A stretch of DNA of 50,090 nucleotides from IMG/VR virus record IMGVR_UViG_3300045000_000015, positions 1-50,090 of that record. One strand, 5' to 3'. Of this stretch, positions 1-50,090 are shown one piece after another; position 1 is the stretch's first letter; every line of letters starts with the position of its first letter. Under the pieces are notes generated by a model. That model was given only the letters and a program-made list of their open reading frames with translations. It did not search any database and had not been told where the DNA came from. The DNA comes from a virus. Lineage: Duplodnaviria; Caudoviricetes. Both the position numbers and the translations under genes were made by a program.

Positions 1-191
1 ACCGATGCGGCTTCCCGTCCGCCAGCAGCTCCGCCAGGGCGCGCATGGCGGGGTAGGTCTTGTGCCCAGCAAGGGGCGGTTTCTGTGGCATAAAGCTCCG
101 TCCATAGTGGCTTTCACCTAAGGCGTATTACCACCGGGCTGAGGTGACTAACCGGTGGAGTAAGAGGCGGTACCCCTTAGGCGACCCACAC
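1..191. repeat. Terminal direct repeat, left copy (matches 49900-50090)
   Basis: 191 nt identical to the end of the window except T128 vs A50027. Confidence 0.95.
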
Positions 192-483: not shown

Positions 484-777
484 ATGCTGATGTGCCTGAC
501 GTGTGGACGGCTCAGCAAACAGAGCCGTTGCCCACTCCATCGGAAGACCACTGCCCGCGGGCTTGGGGCCGCTCACCGCGCTGAGCGCCAGGCGAGGATG
601 CTCGTAGCGCCCTGGTGTGCGCAATGCGGGCATCGCGTCTGTGGAGATCCCGCCTGTATCCGATGTCCCTTGCAGCTTGATCACGTGGTACCTCGCCAGT
701 ATCGAGTCACTGACTCCCGGCGCCGTTTGCTGTGCATTGTCTGCCATAAGGCAAAGACGAAAGGAGGCGGGGCATGA
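484..777 (+). CDS. HNH endonuclease (probable terminase-associated HNH)
   Basis: CxxC...C N-terminus, CAQC, LQLDHVVP, LCIVCHKAKT motifs. Confidence 0.85.
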   Translation: MLMCLTCGRLSKQSRCPLHRKTTARGLGAAHRAERQARMLVAPWCAQCGHRVCGDPACIRCPLQLDHVVPRQYRVTDSRRRLLCIVCHKAKTKGGGA

Positions 778-842
778 GTCTTGCTGAAATTGCCCTGGTA
801 GTTGCGGGTGTCGCACTGCTGATCGTACTCATTCGTCGATAG
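774..842 (+). CDS. 22-aa single-TM micropeptide (MSLAEIALVVAGVALLIVLIRR)
   Basis: ATGA overlap with HNH stop, AAGGAGG RBS at 761-767, fills the gap before 851. Confidence 0.6.
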   Translation: MSLAEIALVVAGVALLIVLIRR

Positions 843-850
843 GAGACCAT

Positions 851-1507
851 ATGCCTTATAATGATGCCGCTAAGAATGTGATGCTAGACGCGCTGGATGA
901 ATCAGCGGCCCTCGGTGCTGACTTCATTGGCATCCAGACTCTCACTGATCCCGGTACCGGTACGAACCTTATCGGTGGCGAAGTCACTGGGGGATCTCCC
1001 GCGTATGCACGTCTTGGTGTGACCTGGGGTGCCGCGGCAGCCGGCATCAAGCAGAATACCGGCGCACTTACCTTCGACGTTCCTGCCGGTACCTATGGCT
1101 TCTACACACTGTGGAATGCGGTTTCTGGCAACACTGGCAACTTCCTCGGTTACCTGCCATTCGGTGGTGCGGTCAAGGGATACGGCGAGGTGGACTCTAC
1201 GGGGGTCACCAATGACACTGTCACGTCGTCCGGCCACGGTCTGACCACGGATGACCGGGTCATGTTCTTCAATGTCTTCGGGGAGGCTATTCCCACGGGG
1301 CTTGTCGAGGGCACCGTTTACTTTGTGCTCGCGTCGGGTCTGACTACAGACGTGTTCAAGGTTGCGACTACCTCAGGTGGTTCGGCGATCAACATCACGG
1401 CACAGGGTGAAGTCTTTTTCCAGAAGGTGGTACCTGAAGTCTTCGGTGCGCAAGGTCAGATCGTGGCTGCGGTTGGCGCGCTCACGCTTGACCTCACCGC
1501 AATGTAG
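851..1507 (+). CDS. Putative virion structural / minor tail (fibre-associated) protein
   Basis: AGGAG RBS; YARxxVTW...LTFDVP...LWNAVSG..GNFLG pattern typical of phage tail proteins; Gly/Thr-rich. Confidence 0.7.
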   Translation: MPYNDAAKNVMLDALDESAALGADFIGIQTLTDPGTGTNLIGGEVTGGSPAYARLGVTWGAAAAGIKQNTGALTFDVPAGTYGFYTLWNAVSGNTGNFLGYLPFGGAVKGYGEVDSTGVTNDTVTSSGHGLTTDDRVMFFNVFGEAIPTGLVEGTVYFVLASGLTTDVFKVATTSGGSAINITAQGEVFFQKVVPEVFGAQGQIVAAVGALTLDLTAM

Positions 1508-1509
1508 AC

Positions 1510-4221
1510 ATGGCGATAACCGTCACGGTTGGCACGCCGAGTGCCATTCCGGCGACATCGTCTGTCAATAACGTTCCTTACCCCGCGGGGGTCGCACTGG
1601 GGGATGTCCTCATCCTGGGGATGTCCTCCGCGCAGAACCTCACCGCGCCTAGTGGTTGGACCGTTGTCCAGAACTACACGGTGTCGCCAAAGGGTGGCCT
1701 GTTCTGGATAGCAGCGACATCGACGGAAGTGGCCGCAAGTGCTGCCTCCGGCTCGTTGGCGGTATCAGAGATATCGGTAGGGGTATCCGCGGGTTGCATG
1801 CTGCTACTGAAGAACGCTGTCAACACTGCGTCTGACGTTACGTCCAATGTGGTCGACACGGTCACGACAGACACGTCCATCGTCATTCCCTCAGTGACTA
1901 CGACTGTCACCAACGACATGCTGATCATGTACTGGGGTGACAATTCGTCGAGTCACACGGTCACGGGGGTCACTCCCTCGGGGGCCACACTGGACGTTGA
2001 CTACGTCACGTCGGGGTTGGCTCGCGGTGGTGGCTTCTGGCATGAGACCATAGCTGCCGCTGGCGCCACCGGTACCCGGTCACTGGCCACGCAAACGAAT
2101 AACACGAAGTTCGGTATTGCTCTCGCGTTCAAGCCCGCGGCAGTGTCGCGTACGCCTGCCGGCATCGGCTTCGCTGGCACGTCAGGCACGGGAACCACTA
2201 AGAAGGTTGCCCGTCCTGTAGCCTCGTCCTGCGCTGGCGCTAGTGGCCGCGGAGTGCAGCTCAAGAAGACATCGTCCATTGTGGCTAGTAGCTCAGCCGG
2301 TGGATCAGGGCAGGGCATACAGCTCAAGAAGCGGTCTTTGACCGGGTCTGCGTTTGCTGGCGCGGCTGCTTACCGCATGCCCAAGGTGGCAAACCCTGTT
2401 GGCACGGCTTACGTCGGTGCGTCCGGTGTTGGCGTCCAGCTCAAGAAGCGGTCTCTGACTGCGTCCGGCTTCGCGGGCGCGTCGGGCCAGGCAGATGCCC
2501 CAGCAGCTACGTTCACCGGCAACTACCCACATGACCTACTGGGGTTGGTGCATTTTCGTTGGCAGTCGCCTGAGAACAGCTCGGGTGTGCTGGGCACCAT
2601 CGGCGATGCTGCTGCAAACAACATCCCGTCGAGCCCTTCCGATAAGACAACCATCCTGGACTACGCGGATTCGCCGTGGTTCACGCTGGTGTCCAACCCG
2701 GTAGCTGCCAGTGCCTATGTGCAGATGCGTGCTCCCGCCCTGGGCAGCACGACAGCATCGGGCGCGTCCGCTAAGGTGCGTTCCGAGCTACGGGAGCTGG
2801 ACTACCCGACCAACAATGCCGTCTCAGCGTGGGACGCTAACGCCGGTGGTCCGCACGTCGCGTATATACGGACGATGGTCACACAGGTTGTTCACGCCAC
2901 CACGCACAACGATCAGGTGTGTATCGCCCAGTGCCATAGGACCACATCGGACGGTGTGCTGTTCTACTACGATGACACCCTGGGTCAGCTCAAGTGGAAG
3001 CTGAACAGCGTCATCAATGCCGGCAACGCGGGCAGCTACACCAAGGGCACGTGGATCAACATCGCATTGGTGGTCAACGCCCACCTGTGTGACATCTATG
3101 TCAACGGGGTTCAGAAAGCTAGCGGGCTTGACCTGACCACCGGGGATTCGGATACCGCTTGCTACTTCAAGGCGGGATGTTACAACCTCACTAACCCGTC
3201 CGATGGGGACTCGAACACCGACTACTCCGAAGTGCACCTGAACGGTGTACAGGTTGGTCACGGCACGGCGTACGACCCGAACCACCCCTACGGTGCGAGT
3301 GGGCCAGGCGTTAATACCGTCTTGCACTCCCCCCGGGGTTACGCGTTCGGTGGCTCCGGCGTATCAGCTGTGGCACGTAAGAGCGTGTCTTTGGCGGCTG
3401 TTGGCTCGGTGGGTACCACGGGCCATGCTGCTGCTACTCACGTAGCCAAGGCTGCCGGGTTGACTTCTGCGGGGTCGCTGGGTAGTGCGGTCACGCTTAA
3501 GGCCGCGTCATCGGCAGGTCTCGCAACCACGGGCACCGTTGGCCGAGCTGCGGCATTGAAGTCAGTGTCACGGGCAGGGCTCAGCGTTGCTGGGACAGTG
3601 GGTCGCTCCACTATGGCCCATGTTGCGGCACGCTTGGGGGTCTCATGTGCGGGCGCCACGGGCCTATCCGTCGCTCTGCACAAGGGCAAGCTGACGGGTC
3701 AGGCTACTGCTGGTGGTGCACCGTCCGCTACGCGGGTGCCTACCAAGACACCTGTAGGCAGCGCGTTCGCCGGACCTAGTGGCCGGAGCGTGGCGCTACA
3801 CAAGGCACTGCCGTCCGGTATGGACTGTGCTGCTGGCACTACATCCGGTGTGGCATCGCATCGCGCACCATGCTCCGGTCTGATCACGGCAGGAAGCATT
3901 GGGCGAGGCGTGGCGCTACACAAGGCGCTGCTGTCCGGTATGGACTGTGCCGCTGGCACCACACACGCCGTTGCTCTGCATCGGGCACCTCGCTCGGGCT
4001 TGGTCACGGCAGGTGTCGTGTGTGTCGCTGTCGCTACTAAGTCGCGGTCTCTGGCAGGCGTTGCTGTCGCTGGTCCCGTAGCGCTGTCCGCATCACCAAC
4101 AAGCCCTCCCCTTCCCCCCCGCACACAACGCTTGGTCGGGCCGAGTCCTCCATGCGCGCATGAGACTGCGGTCATAGACGAGCCCTTCCCCGTAGCCGGT
4201 GGTCCATTGACGGTTACATAG
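1510..4221 (+). CDS. Tail fibre/spike-like protein with central polysaccharide lyase family 7 (alginate lyase-like) domain and Gly/Ala/Ser repeats
   Basis: PL7-like motifs RSELRE (~2779), QCH (2929) and YFKAGCYN (3163); ~20-aa repeats on both sides. Confidence 0.75.
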   Translation: MAITVTVGTPSAIPATSSVNNVPYPAGVALGDVLILGMSSAQNLTAPSGWTVVQNYTVSPKGGLFWIAATSTEVAASAASGSLAVSEISVGVSAGCMLLLKNAVNTASDVTSNVVDTVTTDTSIVIPSVTTTVTNDMLIMYWGDNSSSHTVTGVTPSGATLDVDYVTSGLARGGGFWHETIAAAGATGTRSLATQTNNTKFGIALAFKPAAVSRTPAGIGFAGTSGTGTTKKVARPVASSCAGASGRGVQLKKTSSIVASSSAGGSGQGIQLKKRSLTGSAFAGAAAYRMPKVANPVGTAYVGASGVGVQLKKRSLTASGFAGASGQADAPAATFTGNYPHDLLGLVHFRWQSPENSSGVLGTIGDAAANNIPSSPSDKTTILDYADSPWFTLVSNPVAASAYVQMRAPALGSTTASGASAKVRSELRELDYPTNNAVSAWDANAGGPHVAYIRTMVTQVVHATTHNDQVCIAQCHRTTSDGVLFYYDDTLGQLKWKLNSVINAGNAGSYTKGTWINIALVVNAHLCDIYVNGVQKASGLDLTTGDSDTACYFKAGCYNLTNPSDGDSNTDYSEVHLNGVQVGHGTAYDPNHPYGASGPGVNTVLHSPRGYAFGGSGVSAVARKSVSLAAVGSVGTTGHAAATHVAKAAGLTSAGSLGSAVTLKAASSAGLATTGTVGRAAALKSVSRAGLSVAGTVGRSTMAHVAARLGVSCAGATGLSVALHKGKLTGQATAGGAPSATRVPTKTPVGSAFAGPSGRSVALHKALPSGMDCAAGTTSGVASHRAPCSGLITAGSIGRGVALHKALLSGMDCAAGTTHAVALHRAPRSGLVTAGVVCVAVATKSRSLAGVAVAGPVALSASPTSPPLPPRTQRLVGPSPPCAHETAVIDEPFPVAGGPLTVT
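3788..3959 (+). repeat. 120-bp-period tandem repeat within the tail fibre gene
   Basis: gcgtggcgctacacaaggc...ccggtatggactgtgc at ~3788 and ~3908. Confidence 0.8.
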
Positions 4222-4249
4222 CAAACCAACCCCCAGAGGAGACCTACCC

Positions 4250-4582
4250 ATGGCTGTTGTCACCGTTACCCCCACCGTCCCTGTACCTAGTGGTGCTGCC
4301 CTCCCCGCTGAGTCAGCTGTCGTCACTGCGGGCACCGACTCATTCAGCGTTCGTAACAGTGGGTCGGTACTGCTGTTGTTCCACGCGACTACGGCCAATG
4401 CTCGCACTGGGACCGTGGTTACCACGGCGACTGTGGCTGGGCTCGCTGTCGCTGACCAGCCTGTGCCGGTGGTCGCTAGTGGGTACAACGTCGCTGGCCC
4501 ATTCCCTGTTGCCATCTATGGCAATCCATTGACCGTTACAGTTGACAACGTCGATCTAACTGTGCGTGCTATTGAAGGTTAG
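4250..4582 (+). CDS. Hypothetical beta-rich structural protein
   Basis: AGAGGAG RBS, Val/Thr-rich, co-oriented with tail genes. Confidence 0.7.
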   Translation: MAVVTVTPTVPVPSGAALPAESAVVTAGTDSFSVRNSGSVLLLFHATTANARTGTVVTTATVAGLAVADQPVPVVASGYNVAGPFPVAIYGNPLTVTVDNVDLTVRAIEG

Positions 4583-4601
4583 TCACGCTTAGTAGCTAAT
4601 C

Positions 4602-4951
4602 ACAATGGTGTAACTACAATAACCGAAAGGCACGTATTTACGGTTGTGATAGTTACATCGTTGTAGGCATTCGTCTATTGTGATGTGTGAATGGTTGACG
4701 GTCGTTGACCAGGCAATATAGACGGCCATCGCATTCACAAATCTATATGCGAAATGACCTCAATGAGCGTTCCGGCGCCGCGTGAGCGCCCGCGAAATCG
4801 GGCACCTTTCATCCATGCGCGTGCATGTAACACCGTGCGTGACATAGATAAATTGACAGTCGTGCTCGCGCTACGGTCTGTGACAACTAGGCATCTAAAT
4901 ACGTGCCAAAGGCGGCCCTCACGCCGCTGGGTATTTTAGCGCGAGGGCCGC
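4602..4951 (+). ncRNA. Putative structured ncRNA, 5' domain with long-range pseudoknot
   Basis: Stem 4602-4616/4650-4664 with two G-U pairs; loop 4629-4640 exactly complementary to 4896-4907; further stems TGTGAATG/CATTCACA and 4912-4920/4943-4951. Confidence 0.6.
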
Positions 4952-5008
4952 GAACGCAGACTAGCAGTGCCGCGTAGAAGCGATGTTGTATATAGACAGC
5001 CTTGAGCA

Positions 5009-5528
5009 GTTGGCCCGGGAAACAACCGAAACTTGTCCCCCGGGCCAACGTACTCCCCTGCCCTTTGTGCGAGGGAAGTGGGGGTGAGAGTCCCCCACGC
5101 ACACATCGGGCAGAAGTCTTGAGGTGGCTGGCCCGGGAACAGCAACGAGGAGCAACCATCCCCGGGCCAGCTTTAGCACCCCTCAGCCTTCCTCTCCACA
5201 CCGGCCCAGACTCCGGAGTGTGGGACTGGGGGGTCCCCTGTCGCTGCGTCGGGTCGGTGTACCCCACAGAGACAGAAATCTTGGTGGCTGGCCCCGGGAA
5301 CCGAACCCATGCGCTGATCGAGAACCCAGCCCCGGGGCCAGCACACCCCCTGTCGCTGCATACCTTCCAAACACAGCGACAGAAGTCAAGCTTTGAACGG
5401 GTTGGCCCGGGAACGGTTACGAACCAGGAGGGGAAAGAACCGCTCCCGGGCCAACTTTTGCACCCCCGGCCCGCTCTTGACCTACAACGCTTTCCACACC
5501 AAGGTCACGTTGTAGGGGACCGGGGGGT
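5009..5528 (+). repeat. Modular array of repeated stem-loops (4x module B, 3x module A, 2x module C), putative ncRNA
   Basis: GYTGGCC(C)CGGG...CCCG(G)GGCCARC at 5009-5049, 5127-5171, 5287-5342 and 5401-5455 with compensatory changes; CCCCTGYC...GRCAGAARTC modules between them. Confidence 0.8.
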
Positions 5529-5529
5529 T

Positions 5530-5757
5530 AAGGGTTGCAGCTGGCACGGCTGCATCCTTGCTTAGGCCAGCCCCCCGCACACAACCGCTGGCCGCAGTTA
5601 GTTGCCCGTGCGCAAGGGGCTGGCGTCTCTGGCCAAAACCCCCTGGTGCGCTCCCGGTCCTGAACGACGAGAGGAAACAGAAGCGCACCAGGAGGGGACG
5701 AGGCTGCATTACTCCTGTGAATGCGTTGGCGAAAACAGGAGTTGCCGTGCACTCGTC
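5530..5757 (+). ncRNA. Four further consecutive hairpins, 3' part of the structured locus
   Basis: Stems 5530-5541/5549-5559, 5566-5574/5616-5624, 5642-5652/5682-5692 and 5697-5702/5752-5757 (with inner stem 5711-5718/5735-5742). Confidence 0.5.
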
Positions 5758-5762
5758 ATCTT

Positions 5763-6050
5763 TTAGAGGGTCTGCTCCTGCACCGGCGAGGCTTCGGAGC
5801 CAGCACCCTCCCATGAGGAGATGGCCGTCTCCTCAGGTCTCGTTTTGCGCCAAGTCGCGTTGTCGTATATCGAGGAGACGTCCCAGCCTCCGAACTTCTC
5901 CGCGTCCATGAGCCGTCGGAGCCGTGTTGGCCGTTGATTGGGAGTGGGATGCATAAGCACGTCAAGCCCGGAGCCAGGAAGGGTTACCCATATACCCGGC
6001 CTTACTGTTAGGTATTCAATCACGATATCCGGCATTGCGTGCCTAGGCAT
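5763..6050 (-). CDS. Hypothetical protein divergent from the XRE gene
   Basis: AGGAGG RBS upstream on the - strand; natural-looking composition. Confidence 0.6.
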   Translation of the reverse strand: MPRHAMPDIVIEYLTVRPGIWVTLPGSGLDVLMHPTPNQRPTRLRRLMDAEKFGGWDVSSIYDNATWRKTRPEETAISSWEGAGSEASPVQEQTL

Positions 6051-6258
6051 CCCACTAACCTCCTAGCTGGACAGAGGTACGTGGCGCCCAGGTCCACGGG
6101 GCTCCGAGCGCCACTCTCACCTACTTGCGGGGGCCGCCTTCCGGGGGAAAGTTGACCTCCGCTTGACACAAGACGTTAGTAGCCGGTCAGTGGCATAATC
6201 CATAGTCAACACCCGCACAACGCGGAGTAATTTTCACGGGCTAGGCTGTGATTAGGGC

Positions 6259-7059
6259 GTGATTATGGATCTCTTCGTCGACGAACTCCGCCAAGCGCGG
6301 CAGGCAGCTGACCTGACTCAGGCACAGCTGGCTGACAAGATCGGGTATTCACAGAGCCTCGTGGCGTCCGTCGAGACCGGAAAGCGTGCACCCTCTAAAG
6401 AGTTCGCCATCCAGTGTGACTTGGCACTCGGTACAGGTGGGTTGCTAGCTCGGCTCCTGGAGCACGTCCTACGCCAGCAGACAACTCCGATATGGTTCCA
6501 GCCATGGCTAGACGTGGAGCGCCAGGCAACGGCTCTTCGTACCTATGGCCCGCTGCTAGTACCCGGACTGCTTCAGACAGAGGACTACGCCAGGGCGCTG
6601 CTGCGAGACGAAACTAGGGTGTCGACTCGCATGGAGCGCCAGGAGATCTTAGATGCTCTGTCAGACTTCATCGTCGTTATAGACGAGTATGTGTTAATGC
6701 GTCCCATCGGCAGCGCGGATGTGATGAGCACCCAGATAACTCGGCTGCTTGAAGATTCACGCGCCACAGTGCATGTCGTACCAGCGGCTACAGGCTTCTA
6801 TAGTGGGCTTGACGGCGCGTTTACGGTCGCTGTGGTCGATGGCACTGAGTGCGCGGTCGTTGACAACAGGTTACGCGGGCAAGTCGTCGAGCTGCCGGAA
6901 GACCTGGCCGTGATCCGTAGTGCATGGGAGGCGGTACGCTCGGAGGCACTCCCTAGAAGCCAATCAGCAGTGCTCTTGAAAGAAGCGTGTAACCGATGGA
7001 ACTCAAGTGGCGCAAGTCCGCTCGCTCCAATGGGAGTGGGGGAGACTGCGTTGAAGTAG
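6259..7059 (+). CDS. XRE-family HTH regulator with DUF5753 domain (WhiJ-like)
   Basis: N-terminal HTH (LRQARQAADLTQAQLA...VASVETGKRAP) and LVPGLLQTEDYARALL signature. Confidence 0.9.
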   Translation: MIMDLFVDELRQARQAADLTQAQLADKIGYSQSLVASVETGKRAPSKEFAIQCDLALGTGGLLARLLEHVLRQQTTPIWFQPWLDVERQATALRTYGPLLVPGLLQTEDYARALLRDETRVSTRMERQEILDALSDFIVVIDEYVLMRPIGSADVMSTQITRLLEDSRATVHVVPAATGFYSGLDGAFTVAVVDGTECAVVDNRLRGQVVELPEDLAVIRSAWEAVRSEALPRSQSAVLLKEACNRWNSSGASPLAPMGVGETALK

Positions 7060-7206: not shown

Positions 7207-7258
7207 GGGTACTCCCAATAACTGGGTCAGCACGCTCAGGATTGACTTAGCAGTACCC
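7207..7258. other. Candidate attP site
   Basis: 52-bp imperfect inverted repeat (GGGTACTcCcAA...TTaGcAGTACCC) directly upstream of the serine integrase; size typical of large serine recombinase attP. Confidence 0.45.
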
Positions 7259-9153: not shown

Positions 9154-9225
9154 AGCGGGGAAGAGCGCCGGTCGCTCAACGGACCCATAATCCGTCGGTC
9201 CTAGGTTCAACTCCTAGCCCCGCCA
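9154..9225 (+). tRNA. tRNA-Met(CAT), initiator-like and atypical
   Basis: Cloverleaf: acceptor AGCGGGG/CCCCGCC, D stem GAGC/GCTC, anticodon arm ACGGA-CCCATAA-TCCGT, T arm CTAGG-TTCAACT-CCTAG; CCA not encoded. Confidence 0.85.
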
Positions 9226-9228
9226 CGG

Positions 9229-9278: not shown

Positions 9279-9455
9279 TTAGACCCCTGTTTTTGCCCTT
9301 GCTGCCCTGATCTCTGCTGATGATCGTGACCTTCTGATCGCTTGGCAGAGGTGCTCTTTTTTGGTCAGTTTTGTCACGGTTGAGAAGTCCAGCTCACGGG
9401 CTAGAGCGCGGAGCTGAGCCACCGTGAGGAATTCTAGAGCTATGTAGTCAGTCAA
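9279..9455 (-). CDS. 58-aa Rho-N/HeH(SAP)-like small protein
   Basis: Not in the ORF track; TTG start with AGGGAG RBS; LTVAQLRALARELDFSTVTKLTKKEHLCQAIRR resembles the Rho N-terminal domain pattern. Confidence 0.6.
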   Translation of the reverse strand: MTDYIALEFLTVAQLRALARELDFSTVTKLTKKEHLCQAIRRSRSSAEIRAARAKTGV

Positions 9456-37086: not shown

Positions 37087-37104
37087 CCTGTCTCCCTTCG
37101 ACAG

Positions 37105-37177
37105 TGGGGATGGCGGGAGTTGCACCCACAACACACCGGATTCTTACCAGCGGCTCTATCTGTTGGCCTACATCCCC
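37105..37177 (-). tRNA. tRNA-like gene, anticodon ambiguous (loop TAAGAAT, nominally AGA)
   Basis: Acceptor GGGGATG/CATCCCC plus A, D stem GGC/GCC, anticodon stem GCTGG/CCGGT, T arm GTGGG-TGCAACT-CCCGC; 73 nt. Confidence 0.6.
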
Positions 37178-39502: not shown

Positions 39503-39683
39503 CTTCCCGGTCCTCCGTGGGCACGGCGTGATGCACCGCGGCGAACTTGGCGGCCAGTGCCTTCTTGCGCGCGACTTCCGCCAACCGCTCCGCTTCCTTG
39601 CGAGCTACGGCGCGCTCCTTGCGGTGCAGTCCCATGAGCGCGCCGTAGCTCTTTTGGTCGATGAGGTGTCGTAGTTGTGTCAT
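39489..39683 (-). CDS. Hypothetical protein
   Basis: Coupled starts/stops, RBS. Confidence 0.55.
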   Translation of the reverse strand: MTQLRHLIDQKSYGALMGLHRKERAVARKEAERLAEVARKKALAAKFAAVHHAVPTEDREDAAA

Positions 39684-49637: not shown

Positions 49638-49990
49638 TCCGCTCTCCACTCTCTCAAGAACGCCTCTATGGCGTCCAGCTTCGCCATGATGGTGTCTACG
49701 GATGCCCGCTCCGGAGGTGCCTCGTCCCACGGTTTCACGAGGGTGATTGTGCGCTGATCCTTGTCCGGCGAATAGCGCCCGCGGGGGGCAGCACCCTGGC
49801 GCTCCACATACCCCATGCTGATCAGGTCTCTGATGCGGTTTGAGGCTGTAGCAGGGATGATCGGCGCGCTAGCGGTCATCACCGACACCCCGTCCGGCCA
49901 CCGATGCGGCTTCCCGTCCGCCAGCAGCTCCGCCAGGGCGCGCATGGCGGGGTAGGTCTTGTGCCCAGCAAGGGGCGGTTTCTGTGGCAT
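49634..49990 (-). CDS. Putative winged-helix DNA-binding protein
   Basis: ATASNRIRDLISMGYVER followed by a beta-wing (DQRTITL). Confidence 0.55.
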   Translation of the reverse strand: MPQKPPLAGHKTYPAMRALAELLADGKPHRWPDGVSVMTASAPIIPATASNRIRDLISMGYVERQGAAPRGRYSPDKDQRTITLVKPWDEAPPERASVDTIMAKLDAIEAFLREWRAE

Positions 49991-50090
49991 AAAGCTCCGT
50001 CCATAGTGGCTTTCACCTAAGGCGTAATACCACCGGGCTGAGGTGACTAACCGGTGGAGTAAGAGGCGGTACCCCTTAGGCGACCCACAC
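49900..50090. repeat. Terminal direct repeat, right copy
   Basis: Matches 1-191 and starts inside CDS 49634-49990, consistent with a circular assembly overlap. Confidence 0.95.

What the first reader, a model, noticed from the sequence alone, without database searches (positions are those of the whole stretch)
4602..4951. AT-richer 5' domain with a perfect 12-bp long-range pseudoknot
Seen: a 15-bp stem ACAATGGTGTAACTA (4602-4616) / TAGTTACATCGTTGT (4650-4664) whose only non-Watson-Crick positions are two G-U pairs, which favours a + strand RNA. It is capped by AACCG/CGGTT, and its loop GGCACGTATTTA (4629-4640) is the exact reverse complement of TAAATACGTGCC (4896-4907). The enclosed ~250 nt has further stems (AGGCATTCG/CGAAATGACCT, TGTGAATG/CATTCACA, GGTCGT/ACGGCC) and is followed by GCGGCCCTC/GAGGGCCGC. 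Inference: a compact tertiary-folded RNA domain of the kind seen in large bacterial and phage ncRNAs or ribozymes. I could not match it to RNase P, tmRNA or group I/II intron core motifs.
Basis: partly seen in the sequence, partly recalled or inferred. Interest (0 to 1): 0.75.

Follow-up and report, generated by a model that had tools for sequence, protein, structure and literature searches.

The report
Orphan knotted RNA in temperate phage
A gene-free stretch of an unstudied bacterial virus holds a long hairpin whose loop exactly matches 12 bases lying about 260 bases further on, which likely marks a folded non-coding RNA of 350-400 bases that fits no catalogued family, though no relative or transcript was found to prove the fold or its job.

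Summary
The 22-pair 5' hairpin (4602-4664) favours the + strand. Its loop's 12-base complement (4629-4640/4896-4907) is beyond chance: 20 of 5,000 whole-region shuffles, 0 of 20,000 with the loop fixed. The stretch is non-coding, the most A+T-rich part of a 50-kb orphan temperate phage (likely actinobacterial), and starts 19 bases after a co-oriented gene. No Rfam family fits. No homolog was found in phage, plasmid, viral, metagenome or sampled actinobacterial collections, nor in the closest related phages, so covariation could not be tested.

Three corrections. (1) Without the 5' hairpin the enclosed core is not clearly more stable than shuffles (z -0.8 to -1.9). Two near-equal folds compete and may extend to about 5002. 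(2) It is not the 5' domain of the hairpin array downstream: that array (5004-5760) reads on the minus strand, behind a real 95-aa gene. (3) Nothing supports a ribozyme.

Best reading: a stand-alone, pseudoknot-closed phage RNA of the ROOL/GOLLD kind but not of those families (0.45). Main rival: ordinary transcript-end hairpins with a fortuitous complement (0.25).

The parts
4602..4664 (+). P1/P1b hairpin: 15 bp + 2x2 internal loop + 7 bp, with a 15-nt loop
   Evidence: (pair probability 0.97-0.99); z -3.9 and -4.9 on +
4629..4640 (+). 5' strand of the predicted long-range pseudoknot; abuts the 3' arm of P1b with no spacer
4896..4907 (+). 3' strand of the predicted pseudoknot; sits in an open loop in both competing folds; a weak local 5-bp hairpin competes with it
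4686..4739 (+). Inner hairpin (8-bp perfect base, 7-bp cap), common to both folds
4780..4871 (+). Predicted multi-way junction (10-bp closing helix, 5-bp and 8-bp arms); not significant on its own
4912..4951 (.). GC-rich hairpin after the pseudoknot strand; folds as well or better on the minus strand; possible transcript end for either strand
4952..5002 (+). Possible 3' extension: pairs back with 4742-4752 and 4875-4882 (fold A) or with 4876-4887 (fold B), and with 4665-4668
4250..4582 (+). 110-aa phage gene ending 19 nt before the element (phrog_38030; viral clusters in the Atlas)
5004..5760 (-). Separate convergent array of GC-rich hairpins: four sibling stems (5009-5049, 5127-5171, 5287-5342, 5401-5455) with variable loops, plus other repeated stems
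5763..6050 (-). 95-aa gene with a strong ribosome-binding site, upstream of the array; one 61%-identical homolog; no family

Best explanation
This gene-free stretch holds a 22-pair hairpin whose loop exactly complements 12 bases near the far end, and it is likely the gene for a stand-alone non-coding RNA of 350-400 bases that is predicted to be clamped end to end by that pairing and would act as a stable folded RNA in trans, as ROOL and GOLLD are thought to. Inferred steps: it is made as the distal end of the rightward transcript through the genes at 484-4582 (no promoter of its own was found); it ends at the hairpins at 4912-4951 or 5009-5049, where it meets a convergent minus-strand unit; P1 folds first, and the loop later captures 4896-4907 by displacing a weak local hairpin, stacking on P1b and protecting both ends; the stable RNA would then serve the phage as a protein-free scaffold or decoy (target unknown). 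It is accessory cargo, not found in the closest related phages.
For: Shown: no ORF lying within 4583-5760 has both a positive codon score and a ribosome-binding site. The 401-nt stretch folds better than 100 of 100 shuffles, z -4.3 on +. P1 has three G-U and no A-C internal mismatches on +. The 12-bp complement is significant. The pseudoknot strand follows H-type order with a zero-length inter-helix loop, which a pseudoknot-modelling paper treats as coaxially stacked (PMC2853144, passages). The duplex is -16.5 kcal/mol against about 10 to free both strands. The 3' strand is accessible in both competing folds. Composition differs from the rest of the genome. ROOL and GOLLD are large structured RNAs of phages and prophages, of unknown function (10.1101/2024.12.08.627333, passages).
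Against: No homolog, so no covariation. The minus strand also folds well (z -3.4). Without P1 the + strand z is only -0.8 to -1.9, with minus equal or better. A strand-neutral mismatch count over the element is only 3 G-U to 2 A-C. Two 3' folds lie within 1 kcal/mol. Only 3 nt are left to span a 12-bp helix, so all 12 pairs probably cannot coexist with an intact P1b (recalled geometry; one search confirms such limits exist, but the numbers were lost in the text). No sigma-70-type promoter. Not beside the phage's tRNA (9154-9226), unlike the usual ROOL/GOLLD setting. The function step has no direct evidence.
Confidence: 0.45

Rival explanations
1. Ordinary transcript ends: P1 is a processing or 3'-stabilising hairpin after the 110-aa gene, the 4912-4951 hairpin ends the convergent minus-strand unit, and the 12-base complement is fortuitous.
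For: P1 starts 19 nt after a stop codon. The inner core is not significant without P1, and 4912-4951 folds at least as well on minus. Streptomyces terminators have long stable hairpins with few U (PMC12207403, passages). The descriptor passed 2 control sites in 3.98 million strand-bases, so a rare chance site is possible.
Against: 0 of 20,000 shuffles give the loop a 12-bp partner. P1 is A+U-rich with a 15-nt loop, unlike the GC-rich terminator-like stems elsewhere in this phage and its relatives, whose loops find at most 5-9 bp partners (5 hairpins). It leaves 340 gene-free A+T-rich bases unexplained.
Confidence: 0.25
2. A cis-acting transcription-control RNA (protein-free antiterminator or attenuator) that sets read-through of the rightward transcript across the hairpin array into the XRE, integrase and terminase genes of the excised phage circle.
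For: It lies directly before a run of strong hairpins on the path from the HNH gene to terS. It has two mutually exclusive, near-equal 3' folds. HK022 put RNA shows that a phage RNA alone can antiterminate over 10 kb (PMC9378689, passages).
Against: put is about 70 nt, two stem-loops, and lies near its promoter. The array reads on the opposite strand. The closest phage has about 7 kb of mostly opposite-strand genes before terS and no match to the element, so terS there does not depend on it. No gene start follows the pseudoknot on + for 1.3 kb.
Confidence: 0.17
3. A DNA-level element: a replication origin, the attP site, or a miniature inverted-repeat insertion whose ends are the two 12-mers.
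For: Most A+T-rich part of the genome. The phage encodes its own primase/helicase-type protein and DNA polymerase. Both 12-mers are flanked on the outside by AAA, like a 3-bp target duplication.
Against: No exact DnaA box in the genome; one relaxed match just upstream at about 4540-4548 (box pattern recalled). No iterons. GC skew turns near 23-27 kb, not here. P1 is centred on a single base, whereas serine-integrase sites are centred on a dinucleotide (recalled), and a better attP candidate lies at 7207-7258 before the integrase. One arm of P1 lies outside and one inside the supposed insertion. Single copy in the genome.
Confidence: 0.1
4. A ribozyme or self-splicing intron remnant.
For: Size and predicted multi-junction fold; short stretches loosely resemble recalled group I P7 and RNase P junction motifs.
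Against: No match at E up to 10 to group I intron or RNase P models, whose controls rang, nor to any ribozyme family in the permissive scan. No interrupted gene flanks it.
Confidence: 0.03

Closest known systems
ROOL (RF03087) and GOLLD (RF02032) RNAs
   Same: Large structured non-coding RNAs of phages and prophages with pseudoknots and unknown function (10.1101/2024.12.08.627333 and PMC5737381, passages).
   Different: This one is 350-400 nt against an average of 581 (ROOL) and often over 800 (GOLLD). It has no model match (the ROOL control was silent), is not beside tRNA genes, and has no family or covariation.
raiA motif RNA (RF03072)
   Same: Structured orphan RNA present in Actinobacteria (PMC5737381, passages).
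   Different: No match at E up to 10; the model has 209 positions; no raiA or comFC neighbours among the annotated genes.
ColIb-P9 repZ long-range pseudoknot
   Same: A hairpin loop pairs with a distant downstream strand, competing with local structure (PMC4705826, passages).
   Different: There the partner lies beside the rep ribosome-binding site and needs a leader peptide; here no coding ORF or ribosome-binding site follows 4907.
HK022 put RNA
   Same: Phage RNA element upstream of terminators, acting without a phage protein (PMC9378689, passages).
   Different: About 70 nt, two stem-loops, promoter-proximal; antitermination here is only a positional guess.

Membership tests
ROOL | Match to RF03087 | tested here: inconclusive
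   No match, but the control genomes were silent too
ROOL | About 580 nt, six junctions, three pseudoknots | tested here: not met
   At most 401 nt before the opposite-strand array; one pseudoknot predicted (definition)
ROOL / GOLLD | Often next to tRNA genes | tested here: not met
   Nearest tRNA at 9154, 4.1 kb away
ROOL / GOLLD | RNA-only multimeric cage | not testable with these tools
   Needs mass photometry or cryo-EM
GOLLD | Match to RF02032 | tested here: not met
   (controls gave only sub-threshold hits)
raiA | Match to RF03072 | tested here: not met
   (controls gave only sub-threshold hits)
HEARO / omega RNA | Match to RF02033 and an adjacent IscB/TnpB-type gene (recalled) | tested here: not met
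   no such protein among 20 (Pfam) and 57 (PHROGs) ORFs scanned
Group I intron | Catalytic core matching RF00028 and flanking exons | tested here: not met
   (control over cut-off in 2 of 14 genomes); no interrupted gene
RNase P RNA | Match to RF00010 or related models | tested here: not met
   (control over cut-off in 8 of 14 genomes)
tmRNA / tRNA | tRNA-like domain | tested here: not met
   ARAGORN and Rfam find none here
ColIb-P9-type translational pseudoknot | Partner strand beside the ribosome-binding site of a downstream gene, with a leader ORF | tested here: not met
   All + strand ORFs of 20 aa or more within the gap score negative
Serine-integrase attP | Inverted repeat centred on a dinucleotide (recalled) | tested here: not met
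   P1 is centred on base 4633; a candidate that fits lies at 7207-7258
Conserved structured RNA (any) | Covariation among homologs | not testable with these tools
   No homolog found in any search

The most novel reading that the evidence does not exclude
A new class of phage RNA locus: a 400-base RNA whose 12-base loop pairing either locks a two-state fold that controls RNA polymerase read-through, or forms between copies to build an RNA-only multimer, set head to head against an array of sibling hairpin RNAs, two of whose loops carry anti-Shine-Dalgarno-like sequence.
Probability: 0.15. Interest if true: 0.8.

Novelty: new variant of a known kind. Interest (0 to 1): 0.45.

Why it matters
Large folded RNAs of phages are rare, and the known ones (ROOL, GOLLD) have no assigned function. 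One from an actinobacterial phage, smaller, with a single very long end-to-end pairing that can be mutated and rescued, would be a tractable new case and would show that homology-based screens miss such RNAs in orphan phages. For now it rests on one sequence.

Tried and rejected
Rfam: at gathering threshold only tRNA-Met; at E up to 10, 21 hits, all far below their family thresholds.

Homologs by DNA: phages, no match. Plasmids, one 34-nt hit at E 5. Genomes: 0 of 5; 17 of 401, 2 of 401 and 1 of 401, all short matches of 24-72 nt that do not extend; 0 of 5 related virus records.

Pattern scans: 1 hit inside an unrelated integrase gene, 0 hits, too loose, about 2,300 estimated hits, none similar; some searches gave 4, 15, 8 and 3 loci, none with the hairpin or extended similarity.

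RNA models: the P1 model matched 0 of 151 genomes and only the window among 70 sources. The array-hairpin model matched 5 of 151 genomes, each a single GC hairpin, most just after a stop codon, and no arrays.

Neighbour-protein routes: no locus for the 110-aa gene or the 95-aa gene (one weak hit with four internal stops in 1 of 401 genomes).

Sequencing runs: none was listed and no RNA holder was listed, so no reads could be laid; this is no evidence either way. A loose descriptor was too permissive and was replaced.

Considered and dropped: a tmRNA-like tag frame ending Ala-Ala-stop at 4969-4977 (no tRNA-like domain); type I toxin mRNA (no ribosome-binding site or coding ORF); TIGR- or CRISPR-like reading of the array (irregular spacing, no partner protein found among the ORFs scanned); antisense targets inside the phage (22 matches of 12-mers, several overlapping, about chance level).

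Literature searches for a description of this RNA found none. The supplements of PMC10690425 (about 10,000 viral candidate RNAs; those from IMG/VR are 29-151 nt and need three matches) were not searched, so a listed fragment is not excluded.

Full report
Setting. The window is a whole 50,090-base virus record. It has a 191-base direct terminal repeat at 99.5% identity, although the source classes it as linear and 66% complete. It carries terminase, portal, capsid, tail, serine integrase, DNA polymerase and an XRE/DUF5753 + DUF397 pair. An actinobacterial host is inferred: 8 of 8 XRE relatives were actinobacterial, the best-named integrase relative is from Streptomyces, and the top DNA polymerase hits are mostly actinophages. 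The finding lies in a gap from 4583 to 6258, between a 110-aa gene and the XRE gene.

Observation. The upper helix of the 5' hairpin is 7 bp, so the hairpin has 22 pairs and a 15-nt loop. Its three internal wobbles are all G-U on +, and it folds at -29.0 on + against -16.6 kcal/mol on -. The last 12 loop bases are the exact complement of 4896-4907. This happened in 20 of 5,000 shuffles of the whole region and in 0 of 20,000 when the loop was held fixed. A strict hairpin-loop descriptor passed 3 of 505 twelve-base pairings in 3.98 million strand-bases: this site and two GC-rich palindromic sites from loci chosen with a palindromic pattern. The loops of five other strong hairpins in this phage and two relatives found partners of only 5-9 bases. 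The stretch is the most A+T-rich of the genome, and a codon model trained on 19 of the phage's genes gave no convincing ORF within 4583-5760. That model also scored 3 of 12 probable genes negative, so it is a guide only.

Limits of the fold. 4602-5002 scores z -4.3 on + and -3.4 on - (0 of 100 shuffles each). With the 5' hairpin removed, z on + falls to -1.9, -1.4 and -0.8 for three spans, against -2.3, -2.6 and -1.6 on - (60 shuffles each). So the strong signal is the hairpin and its loop complement, not the enclosed stems. With the pseudoknot strands held open, two different 3' folds score -143.2 and -144.2 kcal/mol. Both close near 5002 and both leave 4896-4907 free. The pseudoknot duplex is -16.5, and freeing its strands costs about 10. 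The zero-base spacer between the pseudoknot strand and the hairpin's 3' arm is the arrangement modelled as coaxially stacked (PMC2853144, passages). But only three bases are left to span a 12-bp helix, so some pairs probably fray; this geometry is recalled, as the paper's numbers were lost in the text.

Boundary. The downstream hairpins (5004-5760) are a separate unit. In a strand-neutral scan their internal mismatches were 15 A-C to 2 G-U on +, that is G-U on -, while the element gave 3 G-U to 2 A-C. Four sibling stems keep 98% of 60 cells paired, with two-sided changes in 4 of 15 pairs (four paralogous copies, structure derived from them). They lie downstream of a minus-strand 95-aa gene at 5763-6050, which has a strong ribosome-binding site and one 61%-identical homolog among 1.84 billion representatives, but no family. 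A model of the sibling stem hit 5 of 151 actinobacterial genomes, each as a single hairpin, most just after a stop codon. That fits terminator-like or 3'-protecting stems; Streptomyces terminators are long, stable and poor in U (PMC12207403, passages). The element and the array are thus convergent, meeting near 5002-5009.

Homologs. None was found: phage and plasmid collections; three samples of 401 genomes by DNA (short matches that did not extend); 151 genomes by the hairpin model; pattern scans of viral, genome and metagenome collections. The closest phages, G405 (terminase 71%, polymerase 60%, primase 64%) and G406, share the virion and replication modules but showed no match to 4590-5780 and no convincing descriptor hit: one weak site in a low-complexity A+T stretch. 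Both records may be incomplete. The element looks like accessory cargo in the variable block between the HNH gene and terS. A likely attP at 7207-7258 (site geometry recalled) would place it near one prophage end.

Known families. No Rfam match at gathering score or at E up to 10. Targeted searches for group I intron, ROOL, GOLLD, HEARO, raiA and RNase P were empty (the ROOL control was silent). It works, if at all, like ROOL and GOLLD, which are large pseudoknotted RNAs of phages with unknown function that form RNA-only cages (10.1101/2024.12.08.627333, passages; PMC5737381, passages). It is not a member: it is shorter, unmatched and not beside tRNAs. Its hairpin-loop-to-distant-strand layout recalls the ColIb-P9 rep pseudoknot (PMC4705826, passages), but no gene follows. 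Four literature searches (listings and abstract starts only) showed no description of it. PMC10690425 was read in passages and its supplements were not searched.

Mechanism. Shown: the pairings, their significance, the lack of coding signal and the strand split. Inferred: co-transcription with the upstream rightward genes (no sigma-70-type promoter), an end at 4951-5049, early folding of the hairpin, later capture of the distal strand, and action as a stable RNA in trans (0.45). Rivals: ordinary transcript-end hairpins with a fortuitous complement (0.25); a cis-acting antiterminator in the manner of HK022 put (PMC9378689, passages; 0.17); a DNA element, noting the AAA outside both 12-mers but a hairpin that straddles the supposed border (0.10); a ribozyme (0.03). 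Earlier notes of this scan held nothing on this genome or sequence; word searches gave analogies only, which I did not check.

Verdict. A real and non-random feature, probably an uncatalogued structured RNA, but resting on one sequence with no covariation and no expression data. Interest 0.45.

Noticed in passing
window 5004-5760 (-): Array of repeated hairpins: four sibling stems with variable loops, two or three copies of a second stem and two of a third. Two loops carry CCUC/CCUCC, like an anti-Shine-Dalgarno sequence (motif recalled). May be tandem terminators or sibling small RNAs; deserves its own look.
   Followed up: partly
window 5763-6050 (-): 95-aa gene with a strong ribosome-binding site and one 61%-identical homolog (P0139); the source's gene calls hold a shorter form and also a doubtful ORF at 5482-5814 across the hairpins.
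   Followed up: partly
window 7207-7258: Dinucleotide-centred imperfect inverted repeat with 7-bp perfect outer arms just before the serine integrase: likely attP.
   Followed up: partly
window 1-191 and 49900-50090: Direct terminal repeat with one mismatch, suggesting a complete circular genome although the record is classed linear and 66% complete.
   Followed up: yes
window 4725-4739 and 5716-5730: 14 of 15 complementary; on the minus strand the second site is largely a hairpin loop that could pair with the element's 4686-4697. Seen in 16 of 1,000 shuffles; unexplained.
   Followed up: partly
window 4577-4586, 4596-4603, 6248-6265, 144-153: A short GTGAYTA motif occurs twice just before the element, twice at the XRE start and once at the genome end (9 hits genome-wide); a possible operator, significance not tested.
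   Followed up: partly
window 4716-4727 and 4990-5001: 11 of 12 direct repeat inside the element, which helps create the competing folds.
   Followed up: partly
window 9154-9226 (+) and 37104-37177 (-): tRNA-Met between terS and terL (ARAGORN and Rfam); a tRNA-Ser call by ARAGORN only, not by Rfam.
   Followed up: no
window 9279-9455 (-): 58-aa ORF with a weak, below-cut-off Rho N-terminal/SAP-like hit (E 0.006) inside the packaging region.
   Followed up: no
window 1510-4221 (+): 903-aa gene with an alginate-lyase-family domain placed before the terminase genes, away from the tail module.
   Followed up: no
L200 8463-8789: The closest phage has a 108-aa gene between terS and terL that by eye resembles the window's 110-aa gene; similarity not confirmed by tblastn.
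   Followed up: no
window 39602-39651: Perfect 16-bp inverted repeat with an 18-nt loop among the leftward early genes.
   Followed up: no
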